A stretch of 64,000 nt of DNA from Bilabrum cf. latius (lineage: Eukaryota). Both the position numbers and the translations under genes were made by a program. Of this stretch, positions 4,281 through 30,818 are shown one piece after another. The notes beneath the pieces were generated by a model that was given only the letters and a program-made list of their open reading frames with translations, made no database searches and was not told where the DNA came from. The stretch covers positions 124,001 to 188,000 of the forward strand of contig OZ237736.1 in NCBI GenBank assembly GCA_965178125.1, given 5' to 3'. Numbering within the stretch: position 1 is the first letter of the stretch; each line of letters begins with the position of its first letter.

Positions 4281-4288
4281 AATATATT

Positions 4289-4498: not shown

Positions 4499-4512
4499 AT
4501 ATGTAAAATTGA

Positions 4513-5740: not shown

Positions 5741-5939
5741 CATATCCTAAGACTTAGGCTAGGGATTCACTCAACAGATTAAGTAAAGTAAAGGTCTAAC
5801 AGATAGACATTAACGGCGCGAAGGTATTAAATTAGGTAGATATATGAATAAATAGCTATTAAATTATTATGTTCAAGTGAAGGACATTATGAAGGACTAC
5901 GGCTTAAGATGTTGTGAAGTGGTTAATATTGACCTCTTA

Positions 5940-6040
5940 TGTTATCCGCCAAAATGTGGAGTTATGATAACTCTATTTCTACTATATAGTAGAAATAGAG
6001 TTTACTTATATAAAAACTACACACATTTTGGCGGATAACA
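5940..6040. repeat. 101-bp terminal fold-back of copy 1 (TG...CA)
   Basis: TGTTATCCGCCAAAATGTG and CACATTTTGGCGGATAACA form a perfect 19-bp inverted repeat around the internal palindrome AACTCTATTTCTACTATATAGTAGAAATAGAGTT. Confidence 0.95.
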
Positions 6041-6240
6041 CAGGCAGCTCTCCGCGGTGCTCTCATGCCGCGAATTGGAAGCGAGTTACCATGGCGCTGG
6101 ACGGGGGAAATCATGTGAATGATCCTTGTTATTCTACTTGATGCTGCGTTCCATTGGATGAGATTCCTCTTTGCAACCGAACAAGTCAGACTCGGAAGTC
6201 CGCGGCCAATCCGCTTCACAACGTGCAGACCAAAGCGAGC

Positions 6241-7660
6241 TCACTGGCGCACCCTCGAGGTGGTCTTCTCCGCACCGCGGATGAAGGCAGGCACCTCGTT
6301 GTAGAAAATGTCCGTGTATAGCTCCGCCTCGTCGGGCAAGGGATGCTTCTTGGCCGCCTCGATCTCAGCGTCCACCTCCTTCCTGATGCCCTTCTCGATG
6401 GCCTTGAGCTCCTCCGCCGAGGCCCACCCCGCCTCCATGATCCTAGACTTGACCAGCTCGATGCAGTCCTTGGTCTTCCTCATCTCGTTGATCTCCTCCC
6501 TGTCGCGATAGGTCACCCCTGGGTCCGACATGGAGTGCCCATGGTACCGGTACGTCCTGCACTCCACGAACAGAGGGCCATTGCCTTTCCCTGCGTATTC
6601 CTTGCACCACCTCATGCCATCCCGCATGGCCAGCACGTCCATGCCATCCAGCTTGATACCGGGGATGGCCACGCCGCCCTGCTTGTAGTACTCGGGGTTG
6701 CAGCTGTGCCTGTCCACGCTCGTGCCCATGCCGTACTGGTTGTTCTCGCAGAATAGCATGAGGGGGAGGCCCCAAAGCTTGGACATGTTGGCCGCCTCCC
6801 AGATCTGCCCCTGGTTCGCCGCGCCGTCGCCGAACATGGCCACGGTCACGCCCATGTCCTAGCCCTCCTTGGCGAGGTACTTTTGCGCAAAGGCCAGCCC
6901 GGCGCCCACGGGCACCTGGGCGCCCACGATGCCGGCACCGCCCCAGAACCGGTTCTTCTTGGAGTACAAATGCATGGATCCGCCCTTGCCCGCAGACACA
7001 CCGCCCGAGTTGCCGAACAGCTCGGCAGCCACCCGCTCCACGGTGTCGCCTCGCACCAGCTGCAGTGCGTGGCATCGGTACGTTCCTACAAGGTCGTCGT
7101 CCTTGCCCAGTCCCGTCTGGAGACCAAGGGCAACAGCTTCCTATCCATCGTACAAGTGGCAGAAACCACGGATGTTGCGCTCCTTGTACTCCTTGTCGAA
7201 GGTGATCTCCATCCGCCGAATCCTAAACATCTCCTTGTGGTAGTGCATCATCTCGTCCTTCGTCGCTTTTGCTGTCTTGATTTCGGGGGTATCCACCACT
7301 GCAAATAAAACTTGAACATCAATGGATGACAGTGATGGATTGCGAGACGCACGCGCGGTAGCTTTGCGCCATGCCGCGCTGGATTTCGGGAAGATCAGGC
7401 AAGCTGGCCCCACCGATCCTATGCATGAAACGAAGGGCGCCACTCCCATTTTCATTCCATTACAAATGGTCTCAAATGGTGCTGAATACATGTCGGGCGC
7501 GTTGCTACGGCGCAGAGATCTCACGGTGGGTCTCGGGCTCGACCTTGAGCTCGAATTCGTACTCATCAGTGGACATCATCCGGGCCATTGGCCTACTAAA
7601 GGAGCTACGCATAGCTGATCGGCCAAGCACGGCAGTAGATCGGCGCATGGCACGCATCAT
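6241..7660 (-). CDS. PDHA1: Pyruvate dehydrogenase E1 alpha subunit, mitochondrial (intron about 7299-7524; two in-frame TAG=Gln)
   Basis: Motifs RGFCHLYDG[TAG][18 protein letters not shown] and [17 protein letters not shown] intron, Arg/Ser-rich presequence, TGA stop. Confidence 0.95.
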
Positions 7661-15778: not shown

Positions 15779-16461
15779 ATCTCTGTACTAGATGTACTTT
15801 TATATGATGGTGTAAATTCTGGAAGTATTGGAAGAGATGGACTAATAATTTGAATATACTCCATAGTAGGAAACTAATCTAAGGTAGAAGCACTCTATTC
15901 ATTGTATCCATCTAAAAGATTTATATAAGTATCACTTTTAATGTCTTTACCTTCATCATCATATTCAAATGTCTCAAATATAGAGAATAAAGGAAAGTTA
16001 AAACTTAAAGTCCACGCACTTGTAAAAGCCGCTAAACGGGTGAAACTAAAAGTTTTAGTCTTACCGTGATATTCAAATACTATACTATCAGTTGGAATAC
16101 TAGCATCTCCACATAAATCACTAAGAGTATTATTAAATTCATTAGATAAGGTCTTAAGACTATAATATAACGACTTGGTTAAGACAATATTACGAGTGTA
16201 AGTAGTTCCATCACTCTTCTTCACAAACGACATCTTATAAATTGACTAATTATCGCTATTCTTTACTTCTTTACTTGCTACAAATAAAGGAATACGACAT
16301 TTAAGAGTCCATCGGTCAAGTGATAATAAGTAGTTTTGTGAATTTGTCAAGATATTACCTTGACGCTGTTCATGTATTGATACTGGTCTATTAGTATTAA
16401 TAGATGTTATAGTATCCTATGAGTTAATATAAAAGATATCTGGTTCTTGAATCTCTACCAT
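15779..16461 (-). pseudogene. Minor capsid (penton) protein, 5' part, disrupted by the Ngaro-like insertion
   Basis: Continuous frame with TAG=Gln from MVEIQEPDIFYINS through NYLLSLDRWTLKCRIPLF to [Q]SASTLD[Q]FPTMEYIQIISPSLPILPE. The pattern resembles virophage pentons, and the position after ATPase and protease matches the mavirus morphogenesis module. Confidence 0.7.
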
Positions 16462-16497
16462 TCTATAACATTTATCAAGAAAATAAGTCTTGTCTAA

Positions 16498-16740
16498 TGC
16501 CCCAAATTGCGGTAATATTATAGCTATTTAAGATATATTTCCGCAATTCTGGGCGCGTACCCGTATTGACTTTTTAAAAAAGTTTTTATTAATTATTTGA
16601 CTCATTGAAAAAATCCAATATTCCGAAATTTTAAAAATTTAGTATCTTAAGATATAGTATAATACCAGCGCCCCAAATTGCGATAATATATTAGGATATT
16701 AAGATATATTTCCGCAATTCTGGGCGCTTACCCGTATTCA
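16498..16740 (-). repeat. Two hairpin repeats (about 16498-16568 and 16668-16740), minus orientation
   Basis: Reverse complement of the hairpin consensus, between the protease stop and the penton start. Confidence 0.93.
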
Positions 16741-16821
16741 TTTTTATATTTTAGTCTTTTTAATATGGCCACCTTATAGATATCAATTTTCAATATCTAA
16801 AAATTTATGGTATATGTCATA

Positions 16822-17370
16822 TTAACTAATTATCAAAGTAATAAGTTCATCATTATCTAGTCCTCCTCCATACTTTTTAAAAGCCTTCTTTAATTGACTA
16901 TTAAACTAATCATTCGTTAAATTATGAAAGAGAAGTCTGAGCACACTCCACCGACCGCATGTGGCAGAGTTATTTGATATTAATTGATTCTTTTGATTTG
17001 AATAGTCAACATTAATACCAGCATCTAATACGTGATCTATTAGAAGACTACTTCTATCATATAGCTTCTATGGGTCTATGACTCCTCCTACGACTGGAAT
17101 ATGAGTATCAGGTAATTGACCATAACTATCCCAAAAATAAAGAGTATTCTTTGATTTATTAAATATGACCGCAGTATAATGACCGCTCATTGTTGCTCCT
17201 TCTACTAAGTTAGGATAATAAAGGACAAATAAAGGATTTTCATCTAGAAATTGTCTGATGTTATTAGTATCACTTATTTCTTCATACATTATAACTGGTA
17301 TATGCTACTTTGTAAATGTAAAGTATAGTCTTTGTACCTCTTCAGGACTTAATGCAGTGGTTATATCCAT
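16822..17370 (-). CDS. Adenain-like maturation cysteine protease (182 aa with TAG=Gln)
   Basis: SGHYTAV...YFWDSYG...NQLISNNSATCGRWSVLRL gives the catalytic His/Asp/Cys plus oxyanion Gln arrangement of adenovirus and virophage proteases. Confidence 0.88.
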
Positions 17371-17389
17371 ATACTTAATACTAAGAAAA

Positions 17390-18457
17390 TTAATATACGA
17401 ACATCTATTTAGGACAAGTGATAAAATTATAAGTCTTATTAATACATAGCCATCTATTACCTTCTCCAAACAATTTATAAACACGATTTATAAGACTTGC
17501 ATCAAATCCTAAATATGCTTTCATTAAATATTTGCTAAATTTCCATAGATTTCTCTTAAATAAAATAATATTATGACTTTCCATGACTATTGACCTAGTA
17601 TTCGCATAATCATTCGTTAAATGACTTATAACTATCATATTTGTTGAGCTATGTCTTCCAACTTCACCTATACGCTTAATTAAGAATAACGCTCTCTACT
17701 TTTTATCACCGTTTAAGGCTTCATAATCATCAAATACCACCACAGAAGGACCCTATTTTGCCCATTCTTCATACAATGGAGTAGTGGTAAATGATGCCTT
17801 TGTCTTGTCTTTACTTGTTGGTTTCATTCTTTCTATCTCTATCTCTCTTTTAATTAATTCATGAGGTTCTAATGACTTCTTTTCCTACCTAAAGAATATC
17901 TTTTCTTCTTTGTATTTCCTCATTAAGTCATCATAACTATCGTTTCTATCTACTGCTACTAATTTATCAATATCAATAAAATTACCATATTTTAAATAAG
18001 TTGGATTTGTTTCCTGTACTGGTGTAATGACTAAAACCCTCTTCTTTGGAATGAACATATGATAATACTTGAGTAAAGACTTAGCAATATAAGACTTACC
18101 AGCACCAGCCTAACCACTTAAATAGTGTATTTGTCTTTTGGTCTCATCATCAAAGAATGGGACTATTTCAAACTAACTCTTATCATCTATTCTTAACTCG
18201 TTAGTCTTTCTAACTAGTTTTTTATTTCCATTCACTAGCTTACACATCTCTTCACGTAATGCTTTTTTATTCTTCTCATATTTAATTGCTCTCTTTCCAT
18301 AATACTCTTCAAGTAAATCATCACTTATATCTTCTGGAGTTATGACTTTTTCCCCTACATCTTCACTAAAAAAGACGCTTTTGTTCCTCTTCTTGTGCTT
18401 GTATTCTCTTAAAGCAACTAAATGACTATTTGGTATTTCATCGTATGATAATGACAT
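17390..18457 (-). CDS. A32/FtsK-HerA-type genome packaging ATPase (355 aa with TAG=Gln)
   Basis: Walker A SG[TAG]AGAGKS, Walker B VVVFDDYE, arginine motif GRHSSTNMIVISH; ends in TAA. Confidence 0.9.
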
Positions 18458-18602
18458 TATATACTATATGTTAATATTTATTATTTTTCTAATAATTAGT
18501 GGGTTCAAAAGGTATATTGTGAGAAGTAGCCATTTCAAATATTCATTTTAGAGTGCACAGTCTTAAGAATATGATTAAAATATCATATAAATATATAGAA
18601 TT

Positions 18603-19124
18603 ATGGATCACAAACTTCTAATTTCAAAAAGATATATTAAATCATTTTATAAGTACTCATGTAAAGTTAATTAGTACTATAAGAAAGCAGAAGAGTAGCG
18701 TAATATGATGACAACTGATAGAGTAGATTGCTATACTAATTATATAACTTGTCTTCTAATTGCTCGTAAGTATAGAGAATGTATTATCAATTGCAGTAAA
18801 AAGTACTATTATGATATGGACTTTACGTTAAATGATAACGGATATGTATCGTCTTCTTTTGATCACTTAAAAACATTCAACTTTGACTATGCTAATTCAA
18901 TGAAAATAAATGAATGTATAGAACAATTTAAACAATCCGTTGAGTGGGAAAGGTTATTTAAAAAAGACTTTTTTCAAATGTAGTTAATTTATGAATATCT
19001 AAAATTTTTCAGACTTAAGTGCTATTTACATGACATACGACCAGATAATCCCCTCCATCCGACAGAAAAAGTTAATAAACTTAACGAAGAAGACATTGAC
19101 GAGCTATTTTATAGTGACTGGTGA
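18603..19124 (+). CDS. Viral hypothetical protein (173 aa with TAG=Gln)
   Basis: ATG 18603 to TGA 19124, immediately followed by a hairpin repeat. Confidence 0.65.
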
Positions 19125-19130
19125 GACGAC

Positions 19131-19320
19131 CGCCCCAAATTGCGGTAATATTATAGCTATTTAAGATATATTTCTGCAATTCTGGGCGCGTAGGCTGTTA
19201 GAGGTTTTACATTTTCGGGTCAATCTAATGAAAATCTCACAATATAGGGCGCCCCAAATTGCGGAAATATATAAGTATCAAGAAAATTATGTCTGCAATT
19301 CTGGGCGTTTAGGTGTATTC
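19131..19320 (-). repeat. Two hairpin repeats (about 19131-19195 and 19248-19320) between convergent genes
   Basis: Reverse complement of the consensus; the second copy overlaps the TGA of the NTase-like gene. Confidence 0.93.
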
Positions 19321-20137
19321 AATTATGTGAAACTAATTTAACGACCCTTTTATTGAGCTAGTCTTCTAAATATTTAATTATAATACTTACATCTTTACTA
19401 TTGAACGTATTAAAGTATTGATATACTGGTTTAATAAGTCCTAATTTACGTACATCATTCTTAAGTCTATCAATAACTCTATTTTTTAATTTAAATGGAA
19501 CTGTTGGAAGTAATAAACTTTTTAATCTTGTAATAGTCAAGTAAAGAAAGCCTACATCGGGATTCTTTATAAGTTGTTCAATCTCTTCCTGCTTCTTCTT
19601 TTGACCTAATTCGTCGTAAATTACATCTAGTCTTTTTAATATCTTGAAATATTTTCGTTCTTTTTGTAAGTCTTTTATGTCATCTATCATCCTATCAGCT
19701 ACTTGTTGAGGCTTCATTTTCAATATCTTACCTCCAATATCATATAATATGCTAACCTCTTCAATATATCCAGTATAGACCCAACTTTCAACGAATATCA
19801 TAGGATTATTCTACTATTTTAAAGATTTTAATATTTTAGGTCTATTAGTATCAAGAAATGTATCTAAAGAGACGCCATTATCATCATATTCAACGTTATA
19901 AATATGTATTAATCTACTCCCTCTTAAGGTCTTTAATTCATTTATAACACTATTGACATCAGACAATTTAACGGGAGAGTATAGGTCTATGTCTCCAGCC
20001 CAAAGTGAAAGCATATTATGAGTAAATGAATATGAACCATTTAAATAAATATCACTTCTATTTATTTTAAAAGACTTGAATATCTTATTATCAAATCGTG
20101 AATAATACTTTAGCTACTACTTTGTTAATTTAACCAT
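19319..20137 (-). CDS. Putative Pol-beta-superfamily nucleotidyltransferase (272 aa with TAG=Gln)
   Basis: IYLNGSYS-x10-GDIDLY matches the hGS...DhD signature. ORF-track pieces 19814-20014 and 19358-19801 are in one frame, joined over TAG TAG. Confidence 0.6.
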
Positions 20138-20171
20138 ATATTAATAAGAAATATTATAGTTCTTTATTATA

Positions 20172-20615
20172 ATGGACGATTTCATAAGACAAAGACTATA
20201 GCAACTAGGTAAATCACCCTCTAATGCCAAAGTCAACAATTTAAAAGACGAATTTAAGCAAAAACTACTTGAATTATTTGAAGACTATCAAATGAATGGT
20301 GTTCAAGGTGGTTCAAAAGTTGGACGTTTTTTTAAAAAAGTAGGTAGAAAATTCAAGAAAGTAGGGCGAACAATTAAAAAAGGTATTAAAAGTAACGTAG
20401 GAAAGGCAATACGAACAGGTCTTAAGTTTGTAGCCCCTGAAGTTGGTATCCCTCTTGATGCTGCACTTAAGACTGTAGGACTTGGAAAGGCTAAGCGTAA
20501 GAGGAAACCTAATCCAAAAGCTAAAGCAAGAGGTAAATTAGTGAGTGCGGTAATGAAGAAGTATGGCGTAAGTCTAGGAGAAGCAAGTAAAATATTAAAA
20601 GAAAATGGTATGTAA
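20172..20615 (+). CDS. Basic virion core/DNA-condensing protein candidate (147 aa)
   Basis: Lys/Arg-rich, with a VQGG/S adenain-type site and a C-terminal ARGKLVSAVMKKYGVSLGEASKILKENGM motif recalled from virophage/PLV basic proteins. Confidence 0.6.
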
Positions 20616-20654
20616 ATTTAATAATATTATCTATTATCATAATATAATTATACG

Positions 20655-22268
20655 ATGTCTAAAAAAAGAACAGCAGTATTGGAAGACTTACTCGATGGAC
20701 TTGTGGAAAGTAGAGCCCCTACAAGTCAAGCAAGACGAAAGGTAAGAAACGAAGAGAGAGCCATAAGAGCAGCTATAGGAGAAGCTAAACGAAAACAAAA
20801 GATTCAATTAGAAGAGGACTTTATGCCATTAGAAGAAAAGAGAAAATTAAAAAGAATAGCAAATCTTATGAAAAGGACTTTAAAAAGAGTTAAAGAGAAT
20901 AGCAAGAAAGGTAAAAAGTATAAAGTAGCTGATATTGATCAAGTTGTAAGACTAGCCAAAGATAATGAACTACTTGATGAAGATGCTGAAGCTATTGCTA
21001 AGATGATATAGAATATTCCATATATGAGCTCATCTAATACACTATTTCAAAAAGGTAAAGCTGAGTCAAAACTTAACGACGCATTAAATAACTTATTTAT
21101 TGAAGCGGAAGAAATTGATAATTTACCTAAAGATATAGAAGACCTAGAAGGTGACTTAAGCAAAGAGTAGCTCCAACAACTTCTTATTGATAATAATGTT
21201 AAACCTGAAACAATTGAAGGTATGAGTAAGCAGAGATTAAATGACCTAGCTACACGTATTCTTTTAATTAAAAGAAGACAAAATGAAAAAGGTAACCCAA
21301 GTAAAACATTTGAAAGAATTGAGGATGATTTTGACAAGCTAACTAGTCTAAGAAGACTTAATTTAAACAGGCAAGTATATGATTTTGATGAAAGAAGGAT
21401 GCTAGCCCGACGTAATGCACTTAGAAAGATTGCCCAAACAAAAGGTAATACAAGTGCTCTTGAAATGATAAACAAACTGACTAAATTACTTGGACCGACT
21501 TATCAAGGTAAAGCGTTGTCGACTATGGATTACCATACTGAACTTAAACCACTATTTAATGAAATTAAGTCTGGACGATATACTGACTTAAGCGCAGATG
21601 ATAGAGCGAAAGGGATTACTAGAATGGGTAAAGAGTTTGTTGAAAATGAAAAGAAGGTTAAAAGTATGGCCGATAATTCATCACGACGAAGAGCTTTTGG
21701 ATAGTTAAGAGATTTTACAAGTGCTCAAAAAGCTGAAAGAGAAGAAAAGTTGAAACAAAGACGTGAAAGACAAGACTCATAGATGGCACAATTGATGGCA
21801 GCACAAAGAAGCAGAAAAATGACGCAAAGACGCAAAAGATCTAAAAGTATAACAGAGAAAGCACCTCAACAGAAGACTCCTTCATCACCTGCTGGTGTAC
21901 TAATGACGAATAGACAAAGAGATCCAGACTTACGAAGACAGGCCGCTTTAAGTGGTCTATCTAATGAAGCTGCTGAATAGATTGCAAGAGGTAATGAACC
22001 TATAGATGATGAAACAGAAGGGACATTATTAGAACAAAGACCAGATGGTGAATTTGTAGCAAACGATGCAGGTGAAGATCTTGGTAAAGGTCAAGAAGCA
22101 AGAGCAAGAGCAGCACGAGCAGCACAAGAACGGGAAGAACAAGAACAAGAAGCACAAGGTCAATCATCTAGTGGAGCAAGTGAAAGTAAGACTGGTGAAG
22201 GTTCAGGTCTAAATAAGAGACTTGATACTCTAATATCTTGGTTGGATAATAGGTTAAGAAGTCTTTAA
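20655..22268 (+). CDS. Large charged/coiled-coil viral protein (537 aa with TAG=Gln)
   Basis: Three ORF-track pieces lie in one frame, joined only by TAGs; ends at TAA 22266-22268. Confidence 0.75.
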
Positions 22269-22511
22269 ATGGTATATACTATAATATTTTAATTTAAAAA
22301 TATTACATTGTAAGAGGTGGCTATATTAAAAATGACTAAATTATAAAAATCAATACGCCTACGCGCCCAGAATTGCAGAAATATATCTTAATATCCTAAT
22401 ATATTATCGCAATTTGGGGCGCTGGTATTATACTATATCTTAAGATACTAAATTTTTAAAATCTCGTAATTTAAAAAAAAAATATCTAGTCTAGCTAATA
22501 TATTATAAGTA

Positions 22512-23234
22512 ATGGCAGGAATATACAATCTCTTAAACAAAAATGAATATGAATTAAAGAGTAAGTCTATTGAAGTAGAATCAATTAAAGCAGAAGGCTT
22601 TGATGGAGCCGCTAACTTTGGACTTAACTTCAATGGTCAATCACTACCCTATATTATGAGTGGTACTAATGAAGATGCTAAGTCTTTCACATGGAGAATA
22701 GGTAAAAACTCAGCATCAGCAGGTGCATCTATCTCAATTAATGTCGCAGGTGATGGAACTCAAACCAGTACTATGACAGCAACCAACTTCTTATCATTTA
22801 CCGGTACACATGTTGCATCTTGTAGTGATGTTGCTTCTAGTTTACCAGCTGGTATTGGGTCAGTGGTTACTCTTGATAGTGTAGTTAATAAAGGACCCAC
22901 AACTAATGAATATGTCGTAAGTCAAGCATCTCAACATTCACCACCTTTTGGAGTATATGTAGGAGAACACCATGATGATGGTAAAGTACTTGTAGCATCT
23001 TTAGGTGATGGAGCTGTGAAAGTAAATAAAAATGGAGGAGATGTAAGTGCGGGTGACTACTTAATAAATAGCTCTGATAGTGGATATGTCTACGCGCCTA
23101 ATCCTCAACCAGTCTCTGTTGATTAGACTATTGTAGCAAAAGCTCTAGTAGATGAAGACTTTTCAAGTGGTACTTCTACTGATGCTAATGGAGTAGAATA
23201 TAAAGTCGTACCTTGTATTTTCTTAACAGGATAA
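22512..23234 (+). CDS. Putative fibre/receptor-binding protein with a C-terminal autocleaving chaperone-like domain (240 aa)
   Basis: Gly/Ser/Thr-rich, beta-type composition. SFTGTH...LGDGAVKV...AGDYLINS...TIVAKAL resembles viral fibre C-terminal domains. Confidence 0.5.
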
Positions 23235-23277
23235 TTGAGTTTAATTATAGAAATATCTTTTTTATTAATATAATAAA

Positions 23278-23916
23278 ATGGATGGAATCAGTTCAAGCAG
23301 TGTCGTTGTAGGAGGTTTAAGTGTCTTACTACCTCTAGCATACTCTGGTGGTATGTCTTGTTGGTAGTGGTTATGGGATAAACCTTTACATAAACGTAAA
23401 AAAATATGTATCTGTGTGCCTGAAGGTAGTGGTAAGTCTACCGCTTGTCAAATATTACGGTCTAGTTCTAAAGACTGTTTACTTGTTGATTTAGATAGTA
23501 CTCTAGGAGTATATGTCTAGGAGCCCGAACTACTTATGAAACTAGACGAATGTAAGTTAAAAAGTGATTGGGGTAATTATAATATACTTAATAGAAAAGC
23601 CAGTAAAGAAGCCCTTCAATGGGTAAAAGATAACTGGTTGAATGAAGGTAGTGAGAAGAGAGTAATATTTTTTACTAAAGAGTTAAGTCTAGCTAATGAG
23701 TTATTTAAAAAAGAAAGTATAGTTGTATGTCTTCCATCTAATTCACTATTCTAGAAGACATTAAAGGATAAGAAAGTAGATAAATAGAAGTCTATGTTAG
23801 AAGACCGTAACTCATATATCAAAGAATTGAACCCTTCTAGCTATTACATTTATAATACTTACGAATAGCTTCACGATAAATTGAGGAATTGCCTCTAGTT
23901 AGGTTACCAAATTTAA
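23278..23916 (+). CDS. P-loop NTPase/kinase-like protein with a hydrophobic N-terminus (212 aa with TAG=Gln)
   Basis: ICICVPEGSGKST...LLVDLD; N-terminal VVVGGLSVLLPLAY. Confidence 0.6.
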
Positions 23917-24050
23917 AAAGTCAATACACCTACGCGCCCAGAATTGCGAAAATATATCTTAAATAGCTATAATATATCCGCAATTTGGGGCGATCAAATC
24001 CTAAGTTTAATTATTCCGCCAAAAAATATTTACTATATATATATATAGAT

Positions 24051-24365
24051 ATGAACTTTAATAATATTTATAACATGAAAAGTTTGAACAATATATTAAA
24101 AAAGGTAAAGACAGCTTTTGATAAATTTTTTGATGGAAAGGACCTTCGTATTTGTGAAGTTGAAGAGCTAAAAGAAGTAGAAAAAGACTAGATTATTACC
24201 TACGAAGATATTAAGTCTATCCTAGGTCTTAAAATGGCTATGTTGCCTAAATATGAAGGAATGTTTTAGATGGCGCAAGATTACAAAGATTTTCGTATTA
24301 TTAATGGCTTACTTGATTTAGAAATTATGAATGAGTTAAAACGTGTGGAAAAATCAACACGGTGA
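24051..24365 (+). CDS. Viral hypothetical protein (104 aa with TAG=Gln)
   Basis: Preceded by the GTTTAATT..CGCCAA motif and a TA run; TGA is directly followed by a hairpin. Confidence 0.6.
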
Positions 24366-24480
24366 GACGCCCAGAATTGCGAAAATATATCTTAAATAGC
24401 TATAATATATCCGCAATTTGGGGCACTCGAAATATCTAACCTGTCAATTTGTATTTTTATAATTAAAATACATACTGATA

Positions 24481-24987
24481 TTACAATTTATAATCTAGAC
24501 AAATATTGTCTGGTTGTTTAGAAGTATTACATAATAGACTTAACTTTTGATCTATTTCTTTTTCTACTCCTGTTTTAGTCTTTTCGTCTTCTTGTTCCAT
24601 CTCTTGGACAGTCTCGTTGAATTTATCCATATCACCGTAAGTCTTTATAAATACTTGTTTTTTCTCGGACATCTTGATTTTGCTATCCTCCACATATTGC
24701 TCACCTTCAATATTACATAATATATTATTAAGATGGAGATAACTTTCTGCTTTGTCATCGTGATCGGTGCTTAATACTTCAACATACTTTGTTTTAAATC
24801 TAAGTTCCAAGTTATGACGTATTTCACTCATATGTTTATGGATCTCTTTTGGGTCTTCTATTTCGCTCTCTTCATACATTGCTATTATAGTACTTATGAC
24901 ATCACTAGGGTTTTCGTCTCGTATTTTAAGTATTAAACTAAAGACATCAAAGTATTCATTTAAAAACTTCCAAATTGTGTTTTTCAT
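24481..24987 (-). CDS. Viral hypothetical protein (168 aa)
   Basis: ATG-to-TAA ORF with a TATATATAG run upstream. Confidence 0.7.
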   Translation of the reverse strand: MKNTIWKFLNEYFDVFSLILKIRDENPSDVISTIIAMYEESEIEDPKEIHKHMSEIRHNLELRFKTKYVEVLSTDHDDKAESYLHLNNILCNIEGEQYVEDSKIKMSEKKQVFIKTYGDMDKFNETVQEMEQEDEKTKTGVEKEIDQKLSLLCNTSKQPDNICLDYKL

Positions 24988-25006
24988 TTACCTATATATA
25001 TAGTGG

Positions 25007-25672
25007 TCATTTTAATAAGATATTTTTAAACTTTGTAAAGTTATCATGAATTTTATCACTATCACCCCAGCACACTTTAGCATACCATAAGTTGCTGTCA
25101 TACATATCGGTCTCATCAAAATGAATATGTCCTAATACTCGCTTTCTCATTTTATCAGCGTGTGATTTACCTCTTCTTAAAGCATCAGGATAAGTCTATG
25201 TATTCTTTTTGTTAAAATATACCTTTGTATCATTAATCTCTACACAATAAACATATTCAGGTTTATCACTCACTGTAAGATCACTAATATTGATTTTTGG
25301 TTTTGGTTTCTCTTCAATGACTTCACTCACTACTTCACTACTTGTATCACTATATGTATCATTCAAATAGTCTTCCTCTTTATTATCCTCTATGTCTTCG
25401 CTATCTAATTCAACATCTTCCAATATAGCCTATTGTCGTTCTAATTGTGGAGGTTTTAACTAGATAGGTTCTATTTTAGACGGTTGTCTCACTAAATTTA
25501 TAGTTGCTATCTCGTCCCCTTCATCATCTATTTCACCCTATAAACTTGAATAATGCTTGTTAATCCATAACATTTTTAAGTCATCACGAGACCACTTGTA
25601 CTTTTCACTTAACTTGACTACTCTTTTTAGAAGGTCTTTATTTTTGTATCTTGTTATATTTAACAATTCCAT
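25007..25672 (-). CDS. Viral hypothetical protein (221 aa with TAG=Gln); acidic middle, C-terminus weakly Tlr6F-like
   Basis: ATG 25672 to TGA 25007 in one frame; C-terminal KVYF...Y-D...HADKMRKR...SNLWYAKVCW. Confidence 0.6.
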
Positions 25673-25902
25673 ATACTTATTATAAATAATTTCTTTGACT
25701 TTGTTTTATATTAATATGGTAAATACTAGAAAAAATTAATATTTCAAAAGTCGTATCTATACACTGGCTAACATAAAATGATAAAATTATAAAAATCAAT
25801 ACACCTACGCGCCCAGAATTGCGGAAATATATCTTAATATCCTAATATATTATCGCAATTTGGGGCGCTGGTATTATGCCATAAAGTATATTACTAGATT
25901 AA

Positions 25903-27558
25903 TTATCTCTATCTATCAGAATAGTCTTTCGCAAGTGGTCGTATTTGGTCTTTCCCATAATCCTATTCTAATTTCTTACGGGTAATCCATTCATTAAACT
26001 TATTAGAATATCCCTTATATTTGACTAAGTATTCAATAAGTCTATCTTTATTTTGTCTTTTATCTAAAAACTTCTCTATTGTGTCTGGTTCTACTTCTAA
26101 ACCTTCAACATTATCAATTTCAGGCTCTTCACTTTCCTTGTCTATGTCATCATTTACCTTATCTTCGTGTTCTACATTGTCTATTTTCTATAACTGTGAA
26201 GCATTAAAGAATCCAGTAAGAGGTTCTCCCTCTTTGTCCATTACTTTATATTTAATCCTCTACTTAGGATTTCTTGGTTTGGTCTTCTATCTAACAGTGA
26301 AGACTTCTCTAGACCAATTAAATAAATTTCCTTTAAACTTGTTCTTCTCAAGTAATACTCTAACTCTATCCCCTACATTAAGATCTTTATCATTCCCGTC
26401 GAAATTATTGGATAATTTCTTATTTTCAATTCTAGATCTAACTACTTCTAAATTTTCGGGTTTCATTGCTTCTAGTGGAGACATTCCTATAGTGTTGTGT
26501 TTTCTCTTATTATATGCTCTTACTAGTCTCTATAATGACGTATGCCAAACACCATCACTGTCATTCTTAATAGCAAAGTCTTTTCTAATCTATTCTTTTA
26601 TAGTCCTATTAAGTCTTTCAACTGCACCATTAGACTATGGATTTCCTGCGATGGTGAATAGTGGTTTTATGTCATTGTCATTCATAAATTTAATATATGC
26701 CTCTTTATTAAACTCATTATCACTTAACATAACAGTCGGTTTTCTCCAATTAGGTTTCTTAAATAGTTTCTTCATCTCACGAATTATATTAACTAATGTC
26801 TTATCTTTTAATGAAATACTCCATAGGTATTTTGTGAATATATCCATTATATTTAATATCCAATTATAGCCGTCATTAGTGTCTGAATACTTTTGCATGT
26901 CTATTAAGTCCAATGCGTAAATTGAGAAAGGCTTAGTAGGTACAAAAGAACTTACTGCTGACTGTTTAGGTCGTTTTTTGGTCAATTGGTGGAGCATCTA
27001 GTTATTTAACCACTTTTCTACTTGTCGTCTTTTAATACGTTTATCTTTTTGTCTAGCTAGGTCATATAACGCATCACGACTGACTACATTACCTTCTTCA
27101 TAATATAGTTTCTTTAATATTGGTTTATAATTAAATTTGTCTTTGTCGTCCTCATCTTCTACTTCAATTAATTTACCGGTTGGTTTATTAAGTTTTTTCG
27201 TCTAAGCTTTAGTCATCTTATAAAAAAGACGAACTAGGTTAGACTATTGAACGCTAAAATGAACACGACTCACTAAGTTATATAAAGTGAAATAGTCTCC
27301 ATCCTTCTATATTGAGTTAATTACCCCACCTCTTCTAAATAGTGGCTTTCCCTTGATATTACTTACATAAGATACATAAGAATATAAAGGTATTTTTTTA
27401 ATACTTGCTTTGGTAGTTGGTACCTCTTCAAATCCTTTATCAAGTAGTCCCTTAATAGTGGCTTCTAAATTATCACTATCTTTTTGATTTTTTGTCGGTT
27501 CATCACCATACGTGTAAGATATTTTACCTCTAGTGTATGTCTTGCCTTTATTAGTCAT
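25903..27558 (-). CDS. Retroviral-type (rve/DDE) integrase with a C-terminal chromodomain (551 aa with TAG=Gln)
   Basis: ALDLIDM...IMDIFTKYLW...LSDNEF...NP[TAG]SNGAVERLNRTIKE...YNKRKHNTIGMSP...VGDRVRV...NWSREVFTV. Chromodomain IEKFLDKR...EYLVKYKGYSNKFNEWI. About a dozen in-frame TAGs; ends in TAA. Confidence 0.93.
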
Positions 27559-27644
27559 ATTTACTATATATATAGTAGATATAAATTTTGGCGTTAATTA
27601 AACGATTTTTTAACATATTGTCTTCTGTTATTTCTTCTAGTTGT

Positions 27645-27878
27645 TTATGCTGTAATTGTTCCATTTTTCTTTAATATTTCTTCTCGTTCTTCTTTACTTT
27701 GAAGATTATAAAAAAGAGTCTATGATCCATTTGACATATCCCACTCATTGCCATCAAAACATAATTTAATTTCATCTTTTAAATTGTCCTCTATAGCTTT
27801 TATAGCCTTTTCAATAACTTTATTATTTTTACAAGCTTTTAAAAACTTGGGAGACATTATAATTTTCAAGTCGTACAT
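27645..27878 (-). CDS. Small viral hypothetical protein (77 aa with TAG=Gln)
   Basis: ATG 27878 is preceded by the shared GTTTAATT-ACGCCAA motif; TAA at 27645. Confidence 0.45.
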
Positions 27879-27918
27879 ATATATAAAGACGATATAATAT
27901 GTTGGCGTAAATTAAACA

Positions 27919-28452
27919 TTATTTCTTATATTTCTTTCTCTTCTAGTTACAGTCATAACAAAACCAGAAAGTGGCTCCTGGTTTAATAAGATACTTTTCA
28001 CATTTCTTACATTGTGAGTATTTCCTCTTTTTATTATAACAACTAAGACAAGTCTTTTTATATTTATGTTTTTCAATGAACTCATCGCAATCAGTGCATC
28101 TACTCTTATCTTTTAATATGTCTTTATTTAATTCGTGTTTAATGGATTTAATATGACTTTTCCAGCTACTACGTTTAACAACACAAGAGCATACATCACA
28201 AGTCTTATACATACAAGCCTTATACACATCATGATCCTTTTCGAATGTGTTATTAATACATTCAGAACCTAATTTAAATATATCACCAGTTGGGGGATAC
28301 TCAACGAAATGAACTTCCTTAATTTGGTGATCACAGATACACTTTCCGTCTTCTTCTCTAGTCTCTCCAGCTGGTATTAATAGAGGGGCTATCTTATTCC
28401 AGTCATTAATCTTTAGCTTATTGATTATGAAGTTACGACATTTATAGCACAT
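27919..28452 (-). CDS. Cys-rich multi-zinc-finger viral protein (177 aa with TAG=Gln)
   Basis: CICDH...LGSECI, a C2H2-like CDVC...HIKSIKH, and several CxxC pairs. Confidence 0.7.
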
Positions 28453-28530
28453 TATAATATAGTATATACTATAATAATATATTATTTTTAAGTCTAATTA
28501 AACGAGATGTCTTAAGCTCGATTCAAATTT

Positions 28531-28604
28531 GGGCGCCCGAAATTGCGGTAATATTATAGCTATTCAAGATATATTTTCGCAATTCTGGGCGCGTAGGCGT
28601 ATTG
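28531..28604 (-). repeat. Hairpin repeat just downstream of the Tlr6F-like gene
   Basis: Reverse complement of the consensus, starting ~5 nt after the TAA at 28610. Confidence 0.92.
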
Positions 28605-28609
28605 ACTTT

Positions 28610-29017
28610 TTAATTTAATATTTTTAATTGTTTCAGTCTTGCGTCCACTTTAGACCTATAGTCATCTAACCATTTTTCCAAAGTATCCCCTTTAACATAC
28701 CTTTTTACATCTAATACTCCATTGGCTAGTTTTGTTAAGTAGTCCTTAATAGCATTATCACTTCCCCATAAGATTTTATGACTGTGATATTTTGAGCTAT
28801 TAGTATCGGTAGTCTTCCCGTGTCTTCGGTAGTATAGGCGTCGTCTTTTAGGGTCAATATGGTTATTATCTCCATACTTACCAATCAAATCAAAGTATTG
28901 AGCATATCGTGCATCACCAAAGCTAGTGATATACTTACCATTTTTGAATACATCATATTTCTTATTTCTACGAGTAGAGGGTTTATATTTGAATCCATCA
29001 ATAATTATCTCATACAT
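28610..29017 (-). CDS. Tlr6F-like protein (copy 2)
   Basis: Identical to 3873-4280 except for the last residues. Confidence 0.65.
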   Translation of the reverse strand: MYEIIIDGFKYKPSTRRNKKYDVFKNGKYITSFGDARYAQYFDLIGKYGDNNHIDPKRRRLYYRRHGKTTDTNSSKYHSHKILWGSDNAIKDYLTKLANGVLDVKRYVKGDTLEKWLDDYRSKVDARLKQLKILN

Positions 29018-29247
29018 AATATATTATGATACAAGATTTATTAACTTAGTATATTGTCGGTAAGACTTGTAAATTAGTTATTAAATAGGTGAAGACTACC
29101 AAGACATATCATAAGACAAAATCATTTGTTAAGGACTAGTTAGAAGAAGTACTCAATACATTGATACAAGTTAAAGGACATTCTAAATATGAACACAAGA
29201 TCAAATGGACCACTTCAAGTGGTATGAGTTAGTGAATATGTAAAATT

Positions 29248-30420
29248 GAATACACCTGAGCGCCCAGAATTGCAAACATAATTTTCTTGATACTTATATA
29301 TTTCCGCAATTTGGGGCGGTCATATCTGGAGATACAATTTGGGGCGGTCATATTTATTATTAGTTATTTTAAAATATCTCGTCAAGTGGTTAAGTCTTTT
29401 TGTGATATCCCGTTAAGTGGTCAATAAAATGAACGGTAAGTCAAAAAAATTAATCAAACTAAAGAAGTAGTTGATTATTAATTATTGAAGACACCTACGC
29501 GCCCAGAATTGCGACAATATCTCTTAATATCCTAATATATTTCCGCAATTTCGGGCCGTCATTTCTGGACATTTAATATAGCACATACTAGAAATATCTT
29601 TATTACAAAATTACACCTCTATAAGATAACTATGTCAAAATTAACAAAATATAAAACTCAATACACCTACGCGCCCAGAATTGCGACAATATATCTTAAT
29701 ATCCTAATATATTACCGCAATTTCGGGCGCTAGTATTATACTATACCATATTTAATTATCCTATATTTTCCATTTAATCTAGTGATTAATCATTTCAAAG
29801 TAATACACTTGACATAAACCAGTTCATTGAGTCATTTTAAAGTCATCGTCAAAACATTTATCATTTTTAAGTTATCCCGCTTTGTATTCCTTTATATCAT
29901 ATACTCAAACAAAGGACTTTAACATATTTAAAGAATTATGAAAAATAAAAATCAATACACCTACGCGCCCAGAATTGCGGAAATATATCTTGAATAGCTA
30001 TAATATTACCGCAATTTCGGGCGATAGATTAAAGGATGTATTTTTAAGGGGATACCCTTATATTTGAAGTTTTGAAGAGATGACATATAAAAGACTTTAT
30101 AAAGTGATTAATATCTCCTTCTAGTTATATTTAAATATTCAATTATTTAAGTATAGATTGACAAGTAATAAAAAAAGAGATAAATTAAGTTGATATATTA
30201 GTTTAGTTTTATTTATTAATTTAAATTTTTCATTGGAAGTATTAAAAAGACTTTAATACTTCTGTCAATCTCTTTAAGTATTTATTTAGTTATTTTCTAA
30301 AGTGGTAAATGTCAATTGATACTTAAAACCAAATCATAATATAAAACTCAATACACCTACGCGCCCAGAATTGCGAACATATATTCTTAAATGACTATAT
30401 ATTTCCGCAATTTCGGGCGG
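29248..30420 (+). repeat. Five hairpin repeats in the terminal non-coding region of copy 2 (about 29248, 29489, 29659, 29953, 30349)
   Basis: Positionally equivalent to the five in copy 1. Confidence 0.95.
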
Positions 30421-30620
30421 GCATATCCTAAGACTTAGGCTAGGGATTCACTCAACAGATTAAGTAAAGTAAAGGTCTAACAGATAGACATTAACGGCGC
30501 GAAGGTATTAAATTAGGTAGATATATGAATAAATAGCTATTAAATTATTATGTTCAAGTGAAGGACATTATGAAGGACTACGGCTTAAGATGTTGTGAAG
30601 TGGTTAATATTGACCTCTTA

Positions 30621-30721
30621 TGTTATCCGCCAAAATGTGGAGTTATGATAACTCTATTTCTACTATATAGTAGAAATAGAGTTTACTTATATAAAAACTA
30701 CACACATTTTGGCGGATAACA
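30621..30721. repeat. 101-bp terminal fold-back of copy 2 (TG...CA)
   Basis: Identical to 5940-6040; host sequence follows. Confidence 0.95.
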
Positions 30722-30818
30722 CGGGCCACACAATATGTGGCTGCATCGTTGGGCTCAACGCTGCGTGGAATGATTAGGATGAATGCTAGTGCACTGTGCA
30801 AACCTAAACTTCATGCAG

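What the first reader, a model, noticed from the sequence alone, without database searches (positions are those of the whole stretch)
15779..30721. Endogenous virophage that has adopted the host's UAG=Gln code
Seen: apparently shattered viral ORFs become intact with TAG=Gln: integrase (about a dozen TAGs, including NP[TAG]SNGAVER = the PQSNG motif), ATPase (Walker A SG[TAG]AGAGKS), protease, penton and GIY-YIG. No internal TAA or TGA appears in them, which random decay in AT-rich DNA would produce. Established: ATPase-protease-penton(-MCP) order plus an rve integrase is the mavirus/EMALE layout, and integrated mavirus is reactivated by a giant virus and protects the host population. Inference: this is a recoded virophage lineage restricted to UAG=Gln hosts. 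It predicts a similarly recoded giant virus and a genetic-code barrier to standard-code viruses. Standard pipelines would call these elements pseudogenised.
Basis: partly seen in the sequence, partly recalled or inferred. Interest (0 to 1): 0.92.

Follow-up and report, generated by a model that had tools for sequence, protein, structure and literature searches.

The report
Integrated virophage that reads TAG as glutamine
A mavirus-like virophage sits integrated in a GC-rich eukaryote whose own genes read TAG as glutamine, and the viral genes use TAG the same way, so they are intact genes and not wreckage.

Summary
Window 15779-30726 is a 30% GC island in about 60% GC host DNA. ORFs of 150 aa or more cover 19% of it under the standard code and 62% with TAG as sense (TAA sense 31%, TGA sense 19%).

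- **Virophage genes.** The penton profile matches the mavirus minor capsid protein (E 1.7e-29). The ATPase model's best structural match is the mavirus FtsK-HerA ATPase (E 3e-22). The protease keeps the H-D-Q-C residues of adenain-type proteases. The integrase has rve and chromo domains.
- **Host code.** A host TAG stands at the conserved Gln of DGQEA in pyruvate dehydrogenase E1-alpha. Other host TAGs stand in Gln columns of TPR repeats.
- **Related virus.** A 16.4-kb metagenome contig (L001) also needs TAG read through in its MCP, integrase and polymerase-like genes.

- The copy is cut inside the penton gene and has no MCP or replication gene.
- The GIY-YIG-like ORF lies in a second element (1-6045) and has no Pfam support.
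- Integrated polinton-like viruses sharing their host's variant code are already published for Streblomastix strix.

Verdict: a real new variant of a known kind. The predicted recoded giant virus remains untested.

The parts
15779..30726 (.). Element 2: the integrated virophage copy. It is cut at its left side and its right end is intact.
   Evidence: GC 0.30 against about 0.59 in the flanks. The junction sequences were read. One contig of run X3 bridges 30726 with 33 nt on the element side.
15779..16461 (-). Penton (minor capsid) gene, first 227 codons only, 4 in-frame TAG. The viral sequence ends at 15779, and the open frame then runs on into host DNA.
   Evidence: A 308-aa protein (P0155) matches it at 99% identity over 99% of the 232-aa query; read by eye, the two sequences agree up to the junction. 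Profile A2 matches 6g41_A 'Minor capsid protein' at E 1.7e-29 and 3j26_N at 3.1e-13.
16822..17370 (-). Cysteine protease of the adenain type, 182 aa, 3 TAG.
   Evidence: H64, D81, Q129 and C138 are invariant in 4 of 4 aligned sequences. Adenain 1avp_A is the only PDB match, at E 0.62, with His, Gln and Cys aligned. Pfam Peptidase_C57 scores E 0.004, below its cut-off. BLASTP to the ORFs of L001-L003 gives 1e-31 to 1e-33; in L001 and L002 these lie directly after the ATPase gene.
17390..18457 (-). FtsK-HerA type packaging ATPase, 355 aa, 6 TAG, one of them in the Walker A loop.
   Evidence: The AlphaFold2 model has pLDDT 91.5. The best Foldseek matches are the mavirus FtsK-HerA ATPase (E 3.0e-22), the Yellowstone Lake virophage 5 packaging ATPase (7e-21) and Sputnik V3 (3.1e-15). 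HMMER finds 1489 homologues.
18603..19124 (+). ORF of 173 aa, unknown function, 3 TAG.
   Evidence: no Pfam match
19319..20137 (-). ORF of 272 aa, 5 TAG, shared with standard-code virophage-like contigs, where it lies just upstream of the ATPase gene.
   Evidence: BLASTP to L002 5.6e-16 and to L003 3.8e-14. Of the 9 differences from other copies shown here, 8 are synonymous.
20172..20615 (+). ORF of 147 aa, Lys-rich, 1 TAG.
20655..22268 (+). ORF of 537 aa, charged and low-complexity, 5 TAG.
   Evidence: Of the 16 differences shown, 10 are synonymous.
22512..23234 (+). ORF of 240 aa, unknown function, 1 TAG.
   Evidence: no family match
23278..23916 (+). P-loop protein of 212 aa, 6 TAG, shared with L001 and L003.
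   Evidence: Pfam AAA_18 at E 0.0027, below its cut-off. BLASTP to L001 6e-31 and to L003 2e-19.
24051..24365 (+). ORF of 104 aa, 2 TAG.
24481..24987 (-). ORF of 168 aa, no TAG.
25007..25672 (-). ORF of 221 aa, 4 TAG. Its C-terminal part is shared with L001.
   Evidence: BLASTP 5.5e-06
25903..27558 (-). Integrase with an rve core and a C-terminal chromodomain, 551 aa, 12 TAG.
   Evidence: Pfam rve scores 32.8 bits (cut-off 32.6) and Chromo 30.3 bits (cut-off 25.1). The TAG of NP[TAG]SNG aligns with the Gln of GNPQS in integrase chain 4pa1_A.
27919..28452 (-). Cys-rich ORF of 177 aa, 1 TAG.
   Evidence: Weak Zn_ribbon_6 match at E 0.044
28610..29017 (-). DUF5754-like ORF of 135 aa, no TAG. A second copy lies in element 1 at 3873-4280.
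   Evidence: Pfam DUF5754 scores 26.7 bits, just under its 27.4 cut-off. The two copies lie within the 98.4% identical stretch 3873-4616 / 28610-29353.
29018..30620 (.). Non-coding right arm holding 5 copies of the 80-bp hairpin repeat.
30621..30721 (.). Terminal palindrome of about 100 nt at the element's right end.
   Evidence: Folds at -51.8 kcal/mol, z -11.6, with 0 of 200 shuffles as good. The same sequence ends element 1 at 5940-6040.
1..6045 (.). Element 1: the right-hand part of a second, mosaic element that runs off the window start. It carries two DUF285-repeat genes (587-1384 and 1474-2493, both -), a GIY-YIG-like ORF without family support (3211-3840, +) and a DUF5754-like gene (3873-4280, -). 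Its last 2.1 kb matches element 2.
   Evidence: 3873-6045 matches 28610-30726 at 98.4-99.3% identity and the flanks beyond differ. DUF285 scores E 2.5e-80 and 8.3e-55.
6241..7566 (-). Host pyruvate dehydrogenase E1-alpha gene, a witness of the host's genetic code.
   Evidence: Matches human E1-alpha at E 2e-105. The TAG at codon 142 is the Gln of DGQEA.
44943..49718 (+). Host TPR-repeat gene, a second witness of the host's code.
   Evidence: Seven TAGs fall in the 42-aa repeats. At 4 of these 7 sites Gln is the commonest residue in the same column of the other repeats.

Best explanation
This is an integrated copy of a mavirus-like virophage, and a second, mosaic copy end lies at 1-6045. The host is a eukaryote whose nuclear code reads UAG as glutamine and keeps UAA and UGA as stops.

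**How it works**
- Shown: the viral genes are intact under that code.
- Inferred: viral mRNAs are translated by the host's ribosomes, so every gene had to end in TAA or TGA.
- Inferred: once TAG was free, the AT-rich virus drifted towards TAG as a glutamine codon. TAG makes up 64 of its 176 Gln codons and CAG only 9.
- Inferred: integration is carried out by the rve integrase, and its chromodomain probably guides target choice.
- Inferred: the packaging ATPase, adenain-type protease and penton, together with an MCP missing from this copy, build the capsid.
- Inferred from mavirus, not tested here: the element is probably reactivated by a co-infecting giant virus.

This copy is cut inside the penton gene and has no MCP or replication gene. 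As assembled, it cannot make particles by itself.
For: **Code in the element**
- ORFs of 150 aa or more cover 0.19 of the island under the standard code and 0.62 with TAG as sense. The controls give 0.31 (TAA sense) and 0.19 (TGA sense).
- There are 64 in-frame TAG in 20 ORFs, and the 19 complete ORFs end in TAA or TGA.
- TAG stands at the Gln of the rve PQS motif.
- TAG stands at the Gln of mavirus penton ETQDASTL.
- The last strand of the ATPase model, residues 351-354, starts at the TAG codon 351, and the final ten-residue blocks average pLDDT 94-95.

**Code in the host**
- The TAG at codon 142 of pyruvate dehydrogenase E1-alpha is the Gln of DGQEA.
- At 4 of 7 TAG sites in the TPR repeats, Gln is the commonest residue in the paralogous column.
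- Frames of 1341-2213 codons carry 8-19 TAG each. The 7 frames examined end in TGA (6) or TAA (1).

**Virophage identity**
- Penton profile against 6g41_A: E 1.7e-29. Against Sputnik 3j26_N: 3.1e-13.
- ATPase fold: best match the mavirus ATPase, E 3e-22, TM-score 0.69/0.79.
- Protease: H, D, Q and C invariant.
- Integrase: rve plus chromo.
- Seven ORFs of the islands are shared with L001 by BLASTP, counting both DUF5754-like copies. The penton is also shared, by a separate pairwise comparison.
- L001's MCP matches the mavirus MCP 6g45_A at 2.6e-17.

**Real sequence under selection**
- Contigs of two runs labelled as different organisms and studies carry the ATPase and integrase stretches with 0-14 differences.
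- Of the 34 coding differences shown, 23 are synonymous and 11 are not.

**More than one insertion**
- Two right ends share 2.1 kb at 98-99% identity but have different flanks.
Against: - There is no MCP, no protein-primed polymerase or other recognisable replication gene, and no left end in the window.
- The left junction lies in repeated host DNA next to an N gap, and I could not verify it.
- At the 6 TAG columns of the ATPase alignment, Gln fills only 16 of 186 cells, against a background of 3.1%. Lys is commoner, with 47 cells, and one column is Tyr/His. That alignment alone does not fix the meaning of TAG.
- No tRNA gene lies in the window, so the decoding tRNA was not seen.
- The protease's similarity to known proteases is weak: E 0.62 in PDB and E 0.004 in Pfam.
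- The AlphaFold2 model of the penton was unusable, at pLDDT 38.
- Expression, particle formation and dependence on a giant virus were not tested.
Confidence: 0.85

Rival explanations
1. It is a decayed, pseudogenised virophage in a host that uses the standard code, and the TAGs are nonsense mutations.
For: Under the standard code the genes are shattered: only 5 ORFs of 150 aa or more, the longest 241 aa. The copy is also cut and lacks an MCP.
Against: - Only TAG interrupts the frames, although TAA and TGA are 2.1 and 1.4 times as common as TAG out of frame.
- Host genes carry in-frame TAG at conserved Gln sites.
- Differences between copies are mostly synonymous: 23 of the 34 coding differences shown.
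- No frameshift breaks any of the recognised genes.
Confidence: 0.02
2. The virus recodes TAG by its own means, for example a suppressor tRNA, as some phages do. The host's code would then be irrelevant.
For: Suppressor tRNAs have been reported in metagenomic virophages: an ochre tRNA in clade 22 (PMC6905037, passage read).
Against: No tRNA gene lies in the window or in L001-L003. The host's own genes use TAG as Gln, so no viral device is needed.
Confidence: 0.03
3. It is a polinton-like virus or a Polinton, not a virophage.
For: [quoted passage not shown] The MCP, which is the most diagnostic gene, is missing here. The relative L001 carries an ORF that I read as a protein-primed polymerase from its motifs; Pfam gave no match.
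Against: - Among solved structures the penton profile matches only the mavirus and Sputnik proteins, plus one chance-level hit.
- The top three structural matches of the ATPase are virophage proteins, ahead of an adintovirus protein.
- L001's MCP matches the mavirus MCP and Pfam MCP_V20_C.
Confidence: 0.05
4. The junctions are assembly chimeras. The element would then be an episome or a co-cultured virus, not integrated DNA.
For: - The left junction abuts a 146-bp exact repeat, a satellite and an N gap.
- Element contigs have about 12 times the word depth of the right-flank contig in run X3.
- The 99%-identical full-length penton P0155 is listed on a longest contig of 48,603 bases, the same length as for the ATPase record.
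Against: - The right junction is bridged by a contig of X3, though with only 33 nt on the element side.
- Two copies end at the same base in two different host flanks.
- Runs labelled as two other organisms carry the terminal 59-67 nt joined to yet another flank.
- The shared unusual code ties the virus to this kind of host either way.
Confidence: 0.05

Closest known systems
Mavirus and the endogenous mavirus-like elements (EMALEs) of Cafeteria burkhardae
   Same: The penton, packaging ATPase and adenain-type protease have mavirus proteins as their closest characterised relatives, and there is an rve integrase. The ATPase-protease-penton order on one strand is the mavirus order as I recall it, not from a call. 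Both are AT-rich islands in GC-rich host DNA with several copies per genome. Endogenous virophages of Cafeteria are reported as active and protective (PMC10945749, search listing and start of abstract only).
   Different: All genes here use TAG as a glutamine codon. No MCP or replication gene lies in this copy. An 80-bp hairpin repeat fills the spaces between genes. The TCTA core of the mavirus/CroV late promoter, a motif recalled from memory, is not enriched upstream of the genes: 4 of 19 against 6.0 expected.
Integrated polinton-like viruses of Streblomastix strix that use TAA/TAG=Gln (Bellas et al. 2023, PMC10120064)
   Same: An integrated small DNA virus shares the variant stop-codon code of its host, and the authors read this as a sign of long association (passage read).
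   Different: Those elements belong to a metamonad group of polinton-like MCPs, and both TAA and TAG are reassigned. Here it is a virophage of the mavirus type, only TAG is reassigned, and a free-standing metagenome relative shares the trait.
NCBI translation table 15 (UAG=Gln only)
   Same: TAG is sense at Gln positions while TAA and TGA remain stops.
   Different: According to PMC11687900 (passages read), this code is reported for Hartmannula sinica, Trochilia petrani, Protocruzia tuzeti and Iotanema spirale. The host here has about 60% GC, long uninterrupted reading frames and a mitochondrial-type pyruvate dehydrogenase. I did not identify it.
Giant-virus metagenome bins best read with variant codes (PMC13524828)
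   Same: These are viruses of eukaryotes whose genes open up only under a stop-codon reassignment. One Imitervirales bin rises from 13% to 93% coding density under code 6 (passage read).
   Different: Those are giant viruses with no known host and mostly use other reassignments. None is linked to this element.

Membership tests
Virophage (mavirus-like) | Virophage-type penton (minor capsid) protein | tested here: met
   Profile A2 holds the full-length copy P0155, two relatives and the L001 penton. It matches 6g41_A 'Minor capsid protein' at E 1.7e-29 over positions 20-299 of 300, and Sputnik 3j26_N at 3.1e-13. The window copy holds only the first 227 codons.
Virophage (mavirus-like) | Virophage-type double jelly-roll major capsid protein | tested here: inconclusive
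   Nothing in the window resembles the L001 MCP. The element is cut inside the penton gene, where mavirus, as I recall its gene order, has the MCP next. In relative L001 the neighbouring gene matches mavirus MCP 6g45_A at 2.6e-17 and Pfam MCP_V20_C at 4.3e-05, below its cut-off.
Virophage (mavirus-like) | FtsK-HerA packaging ATPase | tested here: met
   The model has pLDDT 91.5. The best Foldseek match is the mavirus FtsK-HerA ATPase at E 3.0e-22, followed by the Yellowstone Lake virophage 5 and Sputnik V3 proteins.
Virophage (mavirus-like) | Adenain-type cysteine protease next to the ATPase | tested here: met
   H64, D81, Q129 and C138 are invariant in 4 of 4 sequences. Adenain is the only PDB match, but at a weak E of 0.62, with the catalytic residues aligned. 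The protease gene starts 20 nt after the ATPase stop.
Virophage (mavirus-like) | rve-family integrase (mavirus type) | tested here: met
   Pfam rve scores 32.8 bits against a cut-off of 32.6. Chromo scores 30.3 against 25.1.
Virophage (mavirus-like) | Terminal inverted repeats and target-site duplication | tested here: inconclusive
   Only right ends are in the window. Each ends in a 100-nt palindrome. No left end is available for comparison.
Virophage (mavirus-like) | Replication depends on a co-infecting giant virus | not testable with these tools
   No culture or infection data are at hand. No giant-virus sequence using TAG as sense was found. The one DUF285 relative fetched from the viral collection (L126) uses the standard code.
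UAG=Gln nuclear code (table 15) | In-frame TAG at conserved Gln positions of host genes | tested here: met
   DGQEA of pyruvate dehydrogenase E1-alpha. At 4 of 7 TAG sites in the TPR repeats Gln is the commonest residue in the column.
UAG=Gln nuclear code (table 15) | TAA and TGA remain stops and TAG is not needed as a stop | tested here: met
   The 7 host frames examined end in TGA (6) or TAA (1). The 19 complete element ORFs end in TAA (15) or TGA (4). Reading TAA as sense adds little coverage: 0.57 to 0.59 in the host.
UAG=Gln nuclear code (table 15) | A tRNA-Gln with anticodon CUA and an altered eRF1 | not testable with these tools
   The window holds no tRNA gene and no whole genome is held for it.
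GIY-YIG endonuclease | Match to the GIY-YIG domain | tested here: not met
   The ORF at 3211-3840 in element 1, outside the finding's range, has no GIY-YIG match in Pfam at E up to 5. Only a motif-level resemblance to the eye remains.

The most novel reading that the evidence does not exclude
The window and the metagenome contig L001 would sample a virophage lineage locked to UAG=Gln hosts. This would be one arm of a three-way system: host, giant virus and virophage. The still unseen giant virus would also have to avoid TAG as a stop, and the shared variant code would act as a barrier against standard-code viruses entering and against these viruses leaving. The 80-bp hairpins between genes and the shared upstream motif (GTTTAA, about 30 nt, then TATAG) would then be the transcription signals of that unknown helper virus.
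Probability: 0.35. Interest if true: 0.85.

Novelty: new variant of a known kind. Interest (0 to 1): 0.64.

Why it matters
- **Annotation.** Standard pipelines would call these elements dead. Read with the right code, they are intact, multi-copy and under purifying selection. Surveys of endogenous virophages may therefore miss or mis-score whole host groups.
- **Evolution.** A virus that uses TAG for about a third of its glutamine codons cannot be translated in a standard-code cell. That gives a clean natural case for asking whether code changes isolate hosts from viruses.
- **A concrete search target.** The finding predicts giant viruses that never use TAG as a stop. It also provides a relative (L001) from environmental DNA with which to look for the free virus.
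- **The host.** A GC-rich eukaryote in which only UAG is reassigned to Gln belongs to a rarely reported class of code.

Tried and rejected
- **Penton model.** AlphaFold2 on a 4-sequence alignment gave pLDDT 38. I did not use it.
- **Word-based searches.** The ATPase search found only the protein itself and one fragment. The first scan of viral contigs with the ATPase found nothing. The 32-sequence alignment was too diverse to scan with.
- **Metagenome scan.** The six-sequence alignment returned only the L001 contig again (as L124) and a 4.5-kb near-copy, L125.
- **DNA pattern scans.** A 14-mer of the hairpin repeat gave at least 120 single chance matches in the viral collection. The terminal 18-mer gave 0 matches.
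- **Other scans.** The DUF5754 protein found no relative. The DUF285 protein found one standard-code contig, L126.
- **RNA families.** Rfam gave no match in the window.
- **ORF coverage on L001.** It does not tell the codes apart: 0.60 standard, 0.72 TAG sense, 0.73 TAA sense, 0.67 TGA sense. The case for L001 rests on domain continuity instead.
- **Expression.** No RNA holder was listed among the sequencing runs, so expression remains open.
- **Left junction.** No listed contig bridges 15779 (the table shows only part of the pieces).
- **Whole genome.** None is held for this window.
- **Earlier findings of this scan.** Both look-ups returned nothing.
- **A trypanosomatid-like host.** I considered this because of the one-directional gene clusters. 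I dropped it because a trifunctional purine-synthesis gene is present (the argument rests on recalled biology).
- **Halocafeteria preprint.** 10.64898/2026.07.28.741278 does not mention a genetic code.
- **Supplements.** Supplementary tables of PMC10120064 and of the other papers were closed. They may list further hosts or elements with variant codes.

Full report
**1. What is in the sequence**

The window holds two AT-rich islands (GC about 0.30) in host DNA of about 0.55-0.70 GC. They lie at 1-6045 and 15779-30726. Under the standard code the second island has only 5 ORFs of 150 aa or more, covering 19% of it. With TAG read as sense it has 13, covering 62%, and the longest ORF grows from 241 to 551 aa. 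The controls do little: TAA as sense gives 31% and TGA as sense 19%.

Twenty ORFs of the two islands (4768 codons) hold 64 in-frame TAG, 103 CAA and 9 CAG. The 19 complete ORFs end in TAA (15) or TGA (4). The lack of internal TAA or TGA is partly by construction. Out of frame, however, TAA and TGA are 2.1 and 1.4 times as common as TAG in the same DNA, so random decay would not hit TAG alone.

**2. The host reads TAG as glutamine**

- The host gene at 6241-7566(-) is pyruvate dehydrogenase E1-alpha (E 2e-105 to the human enzyme). Its TAG at codon 142 is the Gln of the conserved DGQEA. A second TAG lies in an insertion and tells nothing.
- A TPR-repeat gene at 44943-49718 has seven TAGs inside its 42-residue repeats. 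At four of the seven sites Gln is the commonest residue in the same column of the other repeats. At two sites no other repeat has Gln, and at one only 2 of the 9 other repeats have it.
- Host frames of 1341 to 2213 codons carry 8-19 TAG each. They hold recognisable ORC2, TPR and GH123 domains.
- The seven frames examined end in TGA (6) or TAA (1). TAG makes up 62 of their 396 Gln-type codons. These are stop-to-stop frames, so the figure is approximate.
- No tRNA gene lies in the window.

**3. The island is a virophage of the mavirus kind**

- **Penton.** The cut ORF at 15779-16461(-) matches a 308-aa protein on another public contig (P0155) at 99% identity over 99% of the 232-aa query; read by eye, the two sequences agree up to the junction. 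A profile of that protein, two relatives and the L001 homologue matches the chain deposited as 'Minor capsid protein', 6g41_A, at E 1.7e-29 over nearly its whole length. It matches Sputnik 3j26_N at 3.1e-13, and the only other hit is at chance level. That 6g41 is the mavirus penton is my recollection of the entry.
- **ATPase.** It has 1489 homologues by HMMER. It folds with pLDDT 91.5. Its best structural matches are the mavirus FtsK-HerA ATPase (E 3.0e-22, TM-score 0.69/0.79), the Yellowstone Lake virophage 5 packaging ATPase and Sputnik V3.
- **Protease.** The 182-aa ORF behind the ATPase keeps invariant H64, D81, Q129 and C138 in all four aligned sequences. It aligns these with the adenain residues, though only at E 0.62. 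The roles of the adenain residues are recalled.
- **Integrase.** It passes the Pfam cut-offs for rve and Chromo.
- **Shared genes.** By BLASTP, seven ORFs of the two islands (counting both DUF5754-like copies) have homologues on L001. The penton is also shared, by a separate pairwise comparison (E 2e-09).

**4. What is missing or doubtful**

- Nothing in the window resembles the L001 MCP or its polymerase-like ORF. The copy ends inside the penton gene.
- The DNA to its left is repeated host sequence. A 146-bp exact direct repeat abuts the junction, and a 284-bp satellite of 10 copies lies at 12017-14854. A 154-bp stretch recurs directly after the N gap at 11133-11332.
- The pieces listed by read laying do not bridge 15779. 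P0155, the full-length penton, is listed on a longest contig of 48,603 bases, the same length as for the ATPase record. I therefore cannot say whether the cut is real or an assembly join.
- The GIY-YIG-like ORF is in the other island (3211-3840) and has no Pfam support.

**5. More than one copy, and selection**

- The last 2.1 kb of both islands are 98.4-99.3% identical. Both end at the same base in different host flanks.
- Left of the shared DUF5754-like gene the two differ. Island 1 carries two DUF285-repeat genes (E 2.5e-80 and 8.3e-55) and the GIY-like ORF. Island 2 carries the Cys-rich ORF and the integrase.
- In run X3 the element's contigs have word depths of about 490-540, against 40.9 for the contig covering the right flank. 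In run X2 the figures are about 21 against 13.8. The tool warns that this is not a copy number, so I read it only as 'more than one copy'.
- A contig of X3 bridges the right junction with 33 nt on the element side.
- Runs labelled as two other organisms hold only the host repeat 14825-15662 and the terminal 59-67 nt of the element, joined to another flank.
- Read laying showed 40 of 76 differences between the window and those contigs. Of the 40, 34 are coding: 23 synonymous and 11 not, three of the 11 in one codon. None touches a TAG. This pattern fits copies that diverged as working viruses.

**6. A relative from environmental DNA shares the trait**

- L001 is a 16,376-base contig of the viral collection. 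The same contig was found again as L124. It carries the closest full-length ATPase (33% identity in the 32-sequence alignment, 35% by BLASTP).
- Its 15 ORFs hold 12 in-frame TAG and end in TAA (9) or TGA (6).
- The TAG at codon 109 of its integrase lies inside the Pfam rve match (residues 47-127). The standard-code ORF, which starts at nucleotide 1694, lacks that match entirely.
- The TAG at codon 95 of its MCP lies inside the alignment to the mavirus MCP.
- All 4 TAGs of its 592-aa ORF are kept in L125, a 97-99% identical contig from another metagenome record.
- ORF coverage alone does not tell the codes apart for L001. What amino acid its TAG encodes is not shown.
- Two further relatives, L002 and L003, use the standard code. 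TAG use is therefore not general in this group.

**7. Signals between the genes**

- An 80-bp unit with a 20-bp stem recurs 14 times in island 2 and 5 times in island 1. It lies in the spaces between ORFs or in the non-coding right arm, and overlaps an ORF end by at most 3-4 nt.
- Copies fold at -22 to -27 kcal/mol, z -2.1 to -4.5.
- Mimivirus transcripts and those of its virophage are said to end at hairpins. This is recalled and not checked here. Transcript-end signals are my preferred reading, but it is an inference.
- Upstream of the 19 ORF starts, TATAG occurs in 12 (expected 2.6) and GTTTAA in 7 (expected 0.8). In both cases 0 of 2000 random draws reached the observed count.
- TCTA is not enriched: 4 against 6.0 expected.
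- The first two motifs were picked after looking at the sequences, and two of the upstream regions are paralogous. These figures are exploratory.
- The right end is a 100-nt palindrome folding at -51.8 kcal/mol, z -11.6.

**8. Prior work**

- Bellas et al. state that integrated viral elements of Streblomastix strix use the same TAA/TAG=Gln table as their host (PMC10120064, passage read).
- Paez-Espino et al. report an ochre-suppressor tRNA in one virophage clade and suggest hosts with reassigned stops (PMC6905037).
- A 2026 catalogue reports giant-virus bins best read with variant codes and notes that all isolates so far come from standard-code hosts (PMC13524828).
- UAG-only reassignment to Gln is listed for three ciliates and Iotanema (PMC11687900).
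- My searches for a virophage with a reassigned stop codon found no such report. Supplements were closed.

**9. Verdict**

This is a mavirus-like endogenous virophage whose genes are intact under the host's UAG=Gln code. It is a new variant of a known kind, not a new kind. The wider claims are reasonable inferences that nothing here tests: restriction to such hosts, a recoded helper giant virus, and a code barrier.

Noticed in passing
window 31000-64000 and 6241-11073: The host itself appears to use UAG=Gln with UAA and UGA as stops, in a genome of about 60% GC. Its reading frames are long and uninterrupted, up to 2213 codons. The recognised genes lie on the - strand to the left of the islands and mostly on the + strand to the right. 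Reports of UAG-only reassignment to Gln are few (PMC11687900).
   Followed up: partly
window 1-6045: A second, mosaic element end. It shares its last 2.1 kb with the finding's element at 98-99% identity. Upstream it carries two DUF285-repeat genes and a GIY-YIG-like ORF instead of the integrase. A 165-bp stretch (2986-3150) is 85% identical to the start of the Cys-rich ORF of element 2.
   Followed up: partly
window 16491-30419, 14 copies; 4505-5737, 5 copies: An 80-bp palindromic unit with GC-rich stem ends lies in AT-rich DNA. It occupies most spaces between genes, in both orientations, and forms an array in the non-coding right arm. It may be a transcript-end signal, a protein-binding site or a small mobile unit.
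   Followed up: partly
window 30621-30721 and 5940-6040: A near-perfect 100-nt palindrome lies at the very end of both elements (-51.8 kcal/mol). Runs labelled as other organisms carry its last 59-67 nt joined to a different flank.
   Followed up: partly
window 11333-15778: Host repeat landscape at the left junction. A 284-bp satellite of 10 copies (98% alike) lies at 12017-14854. A 146-bp exact direct repeat lies at 15271-15416 and 15633-15778. The 154 bp at 15459-15612 recur directly after the N gap (11333-11486). The stretch 14825-15662 is at very high depth in all four runs laid.
   Followed up: partly
60 nt upstream of 19 ORF starts in both islands: TATAG lies 6-21 nt before the ATG in 10 of the 12 starts that carry it. 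GTTTAA lies about 39-51 nt before the ATG in 7 of 19. The recalled giant-virus promoter cores TCTA and AAAATTGA are not enriched.
   Followed up: partly
L001 1-16376 (same contig as L124), and L125: A metagenome virophage contig with MCP, penton, ATPase, protease, a polymerase-like ORF and an rve-chromo integrase needs 12 TAGs read through. Inverted repeats at 1-98 / 2358-2455 and 2567-2596 / 16347-16376 suggest a permuted assembly of a genome with terminal repeats.
   Followed up: partly
window 7840-11073 (-): A host purine-synthesis fusion gene has its domains in the order GARS, formyltransferase, AIRS. As I recall, the animal trifunctional enzyme has the order GARS-AIRS-GART. The gene has no TAG in 1077 codons.
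   Followed up: no
window 27582 and 19128; 16576 and 19127: Contigs of run X3 join distant points of the element: 27582 to 19128 with 35 other letters between, at depth 740, and 16576/16577 to 19127/19128. Either other copies have a different gene order or the assembly graph jumps at the hairpin repeats.
   Followed up: no
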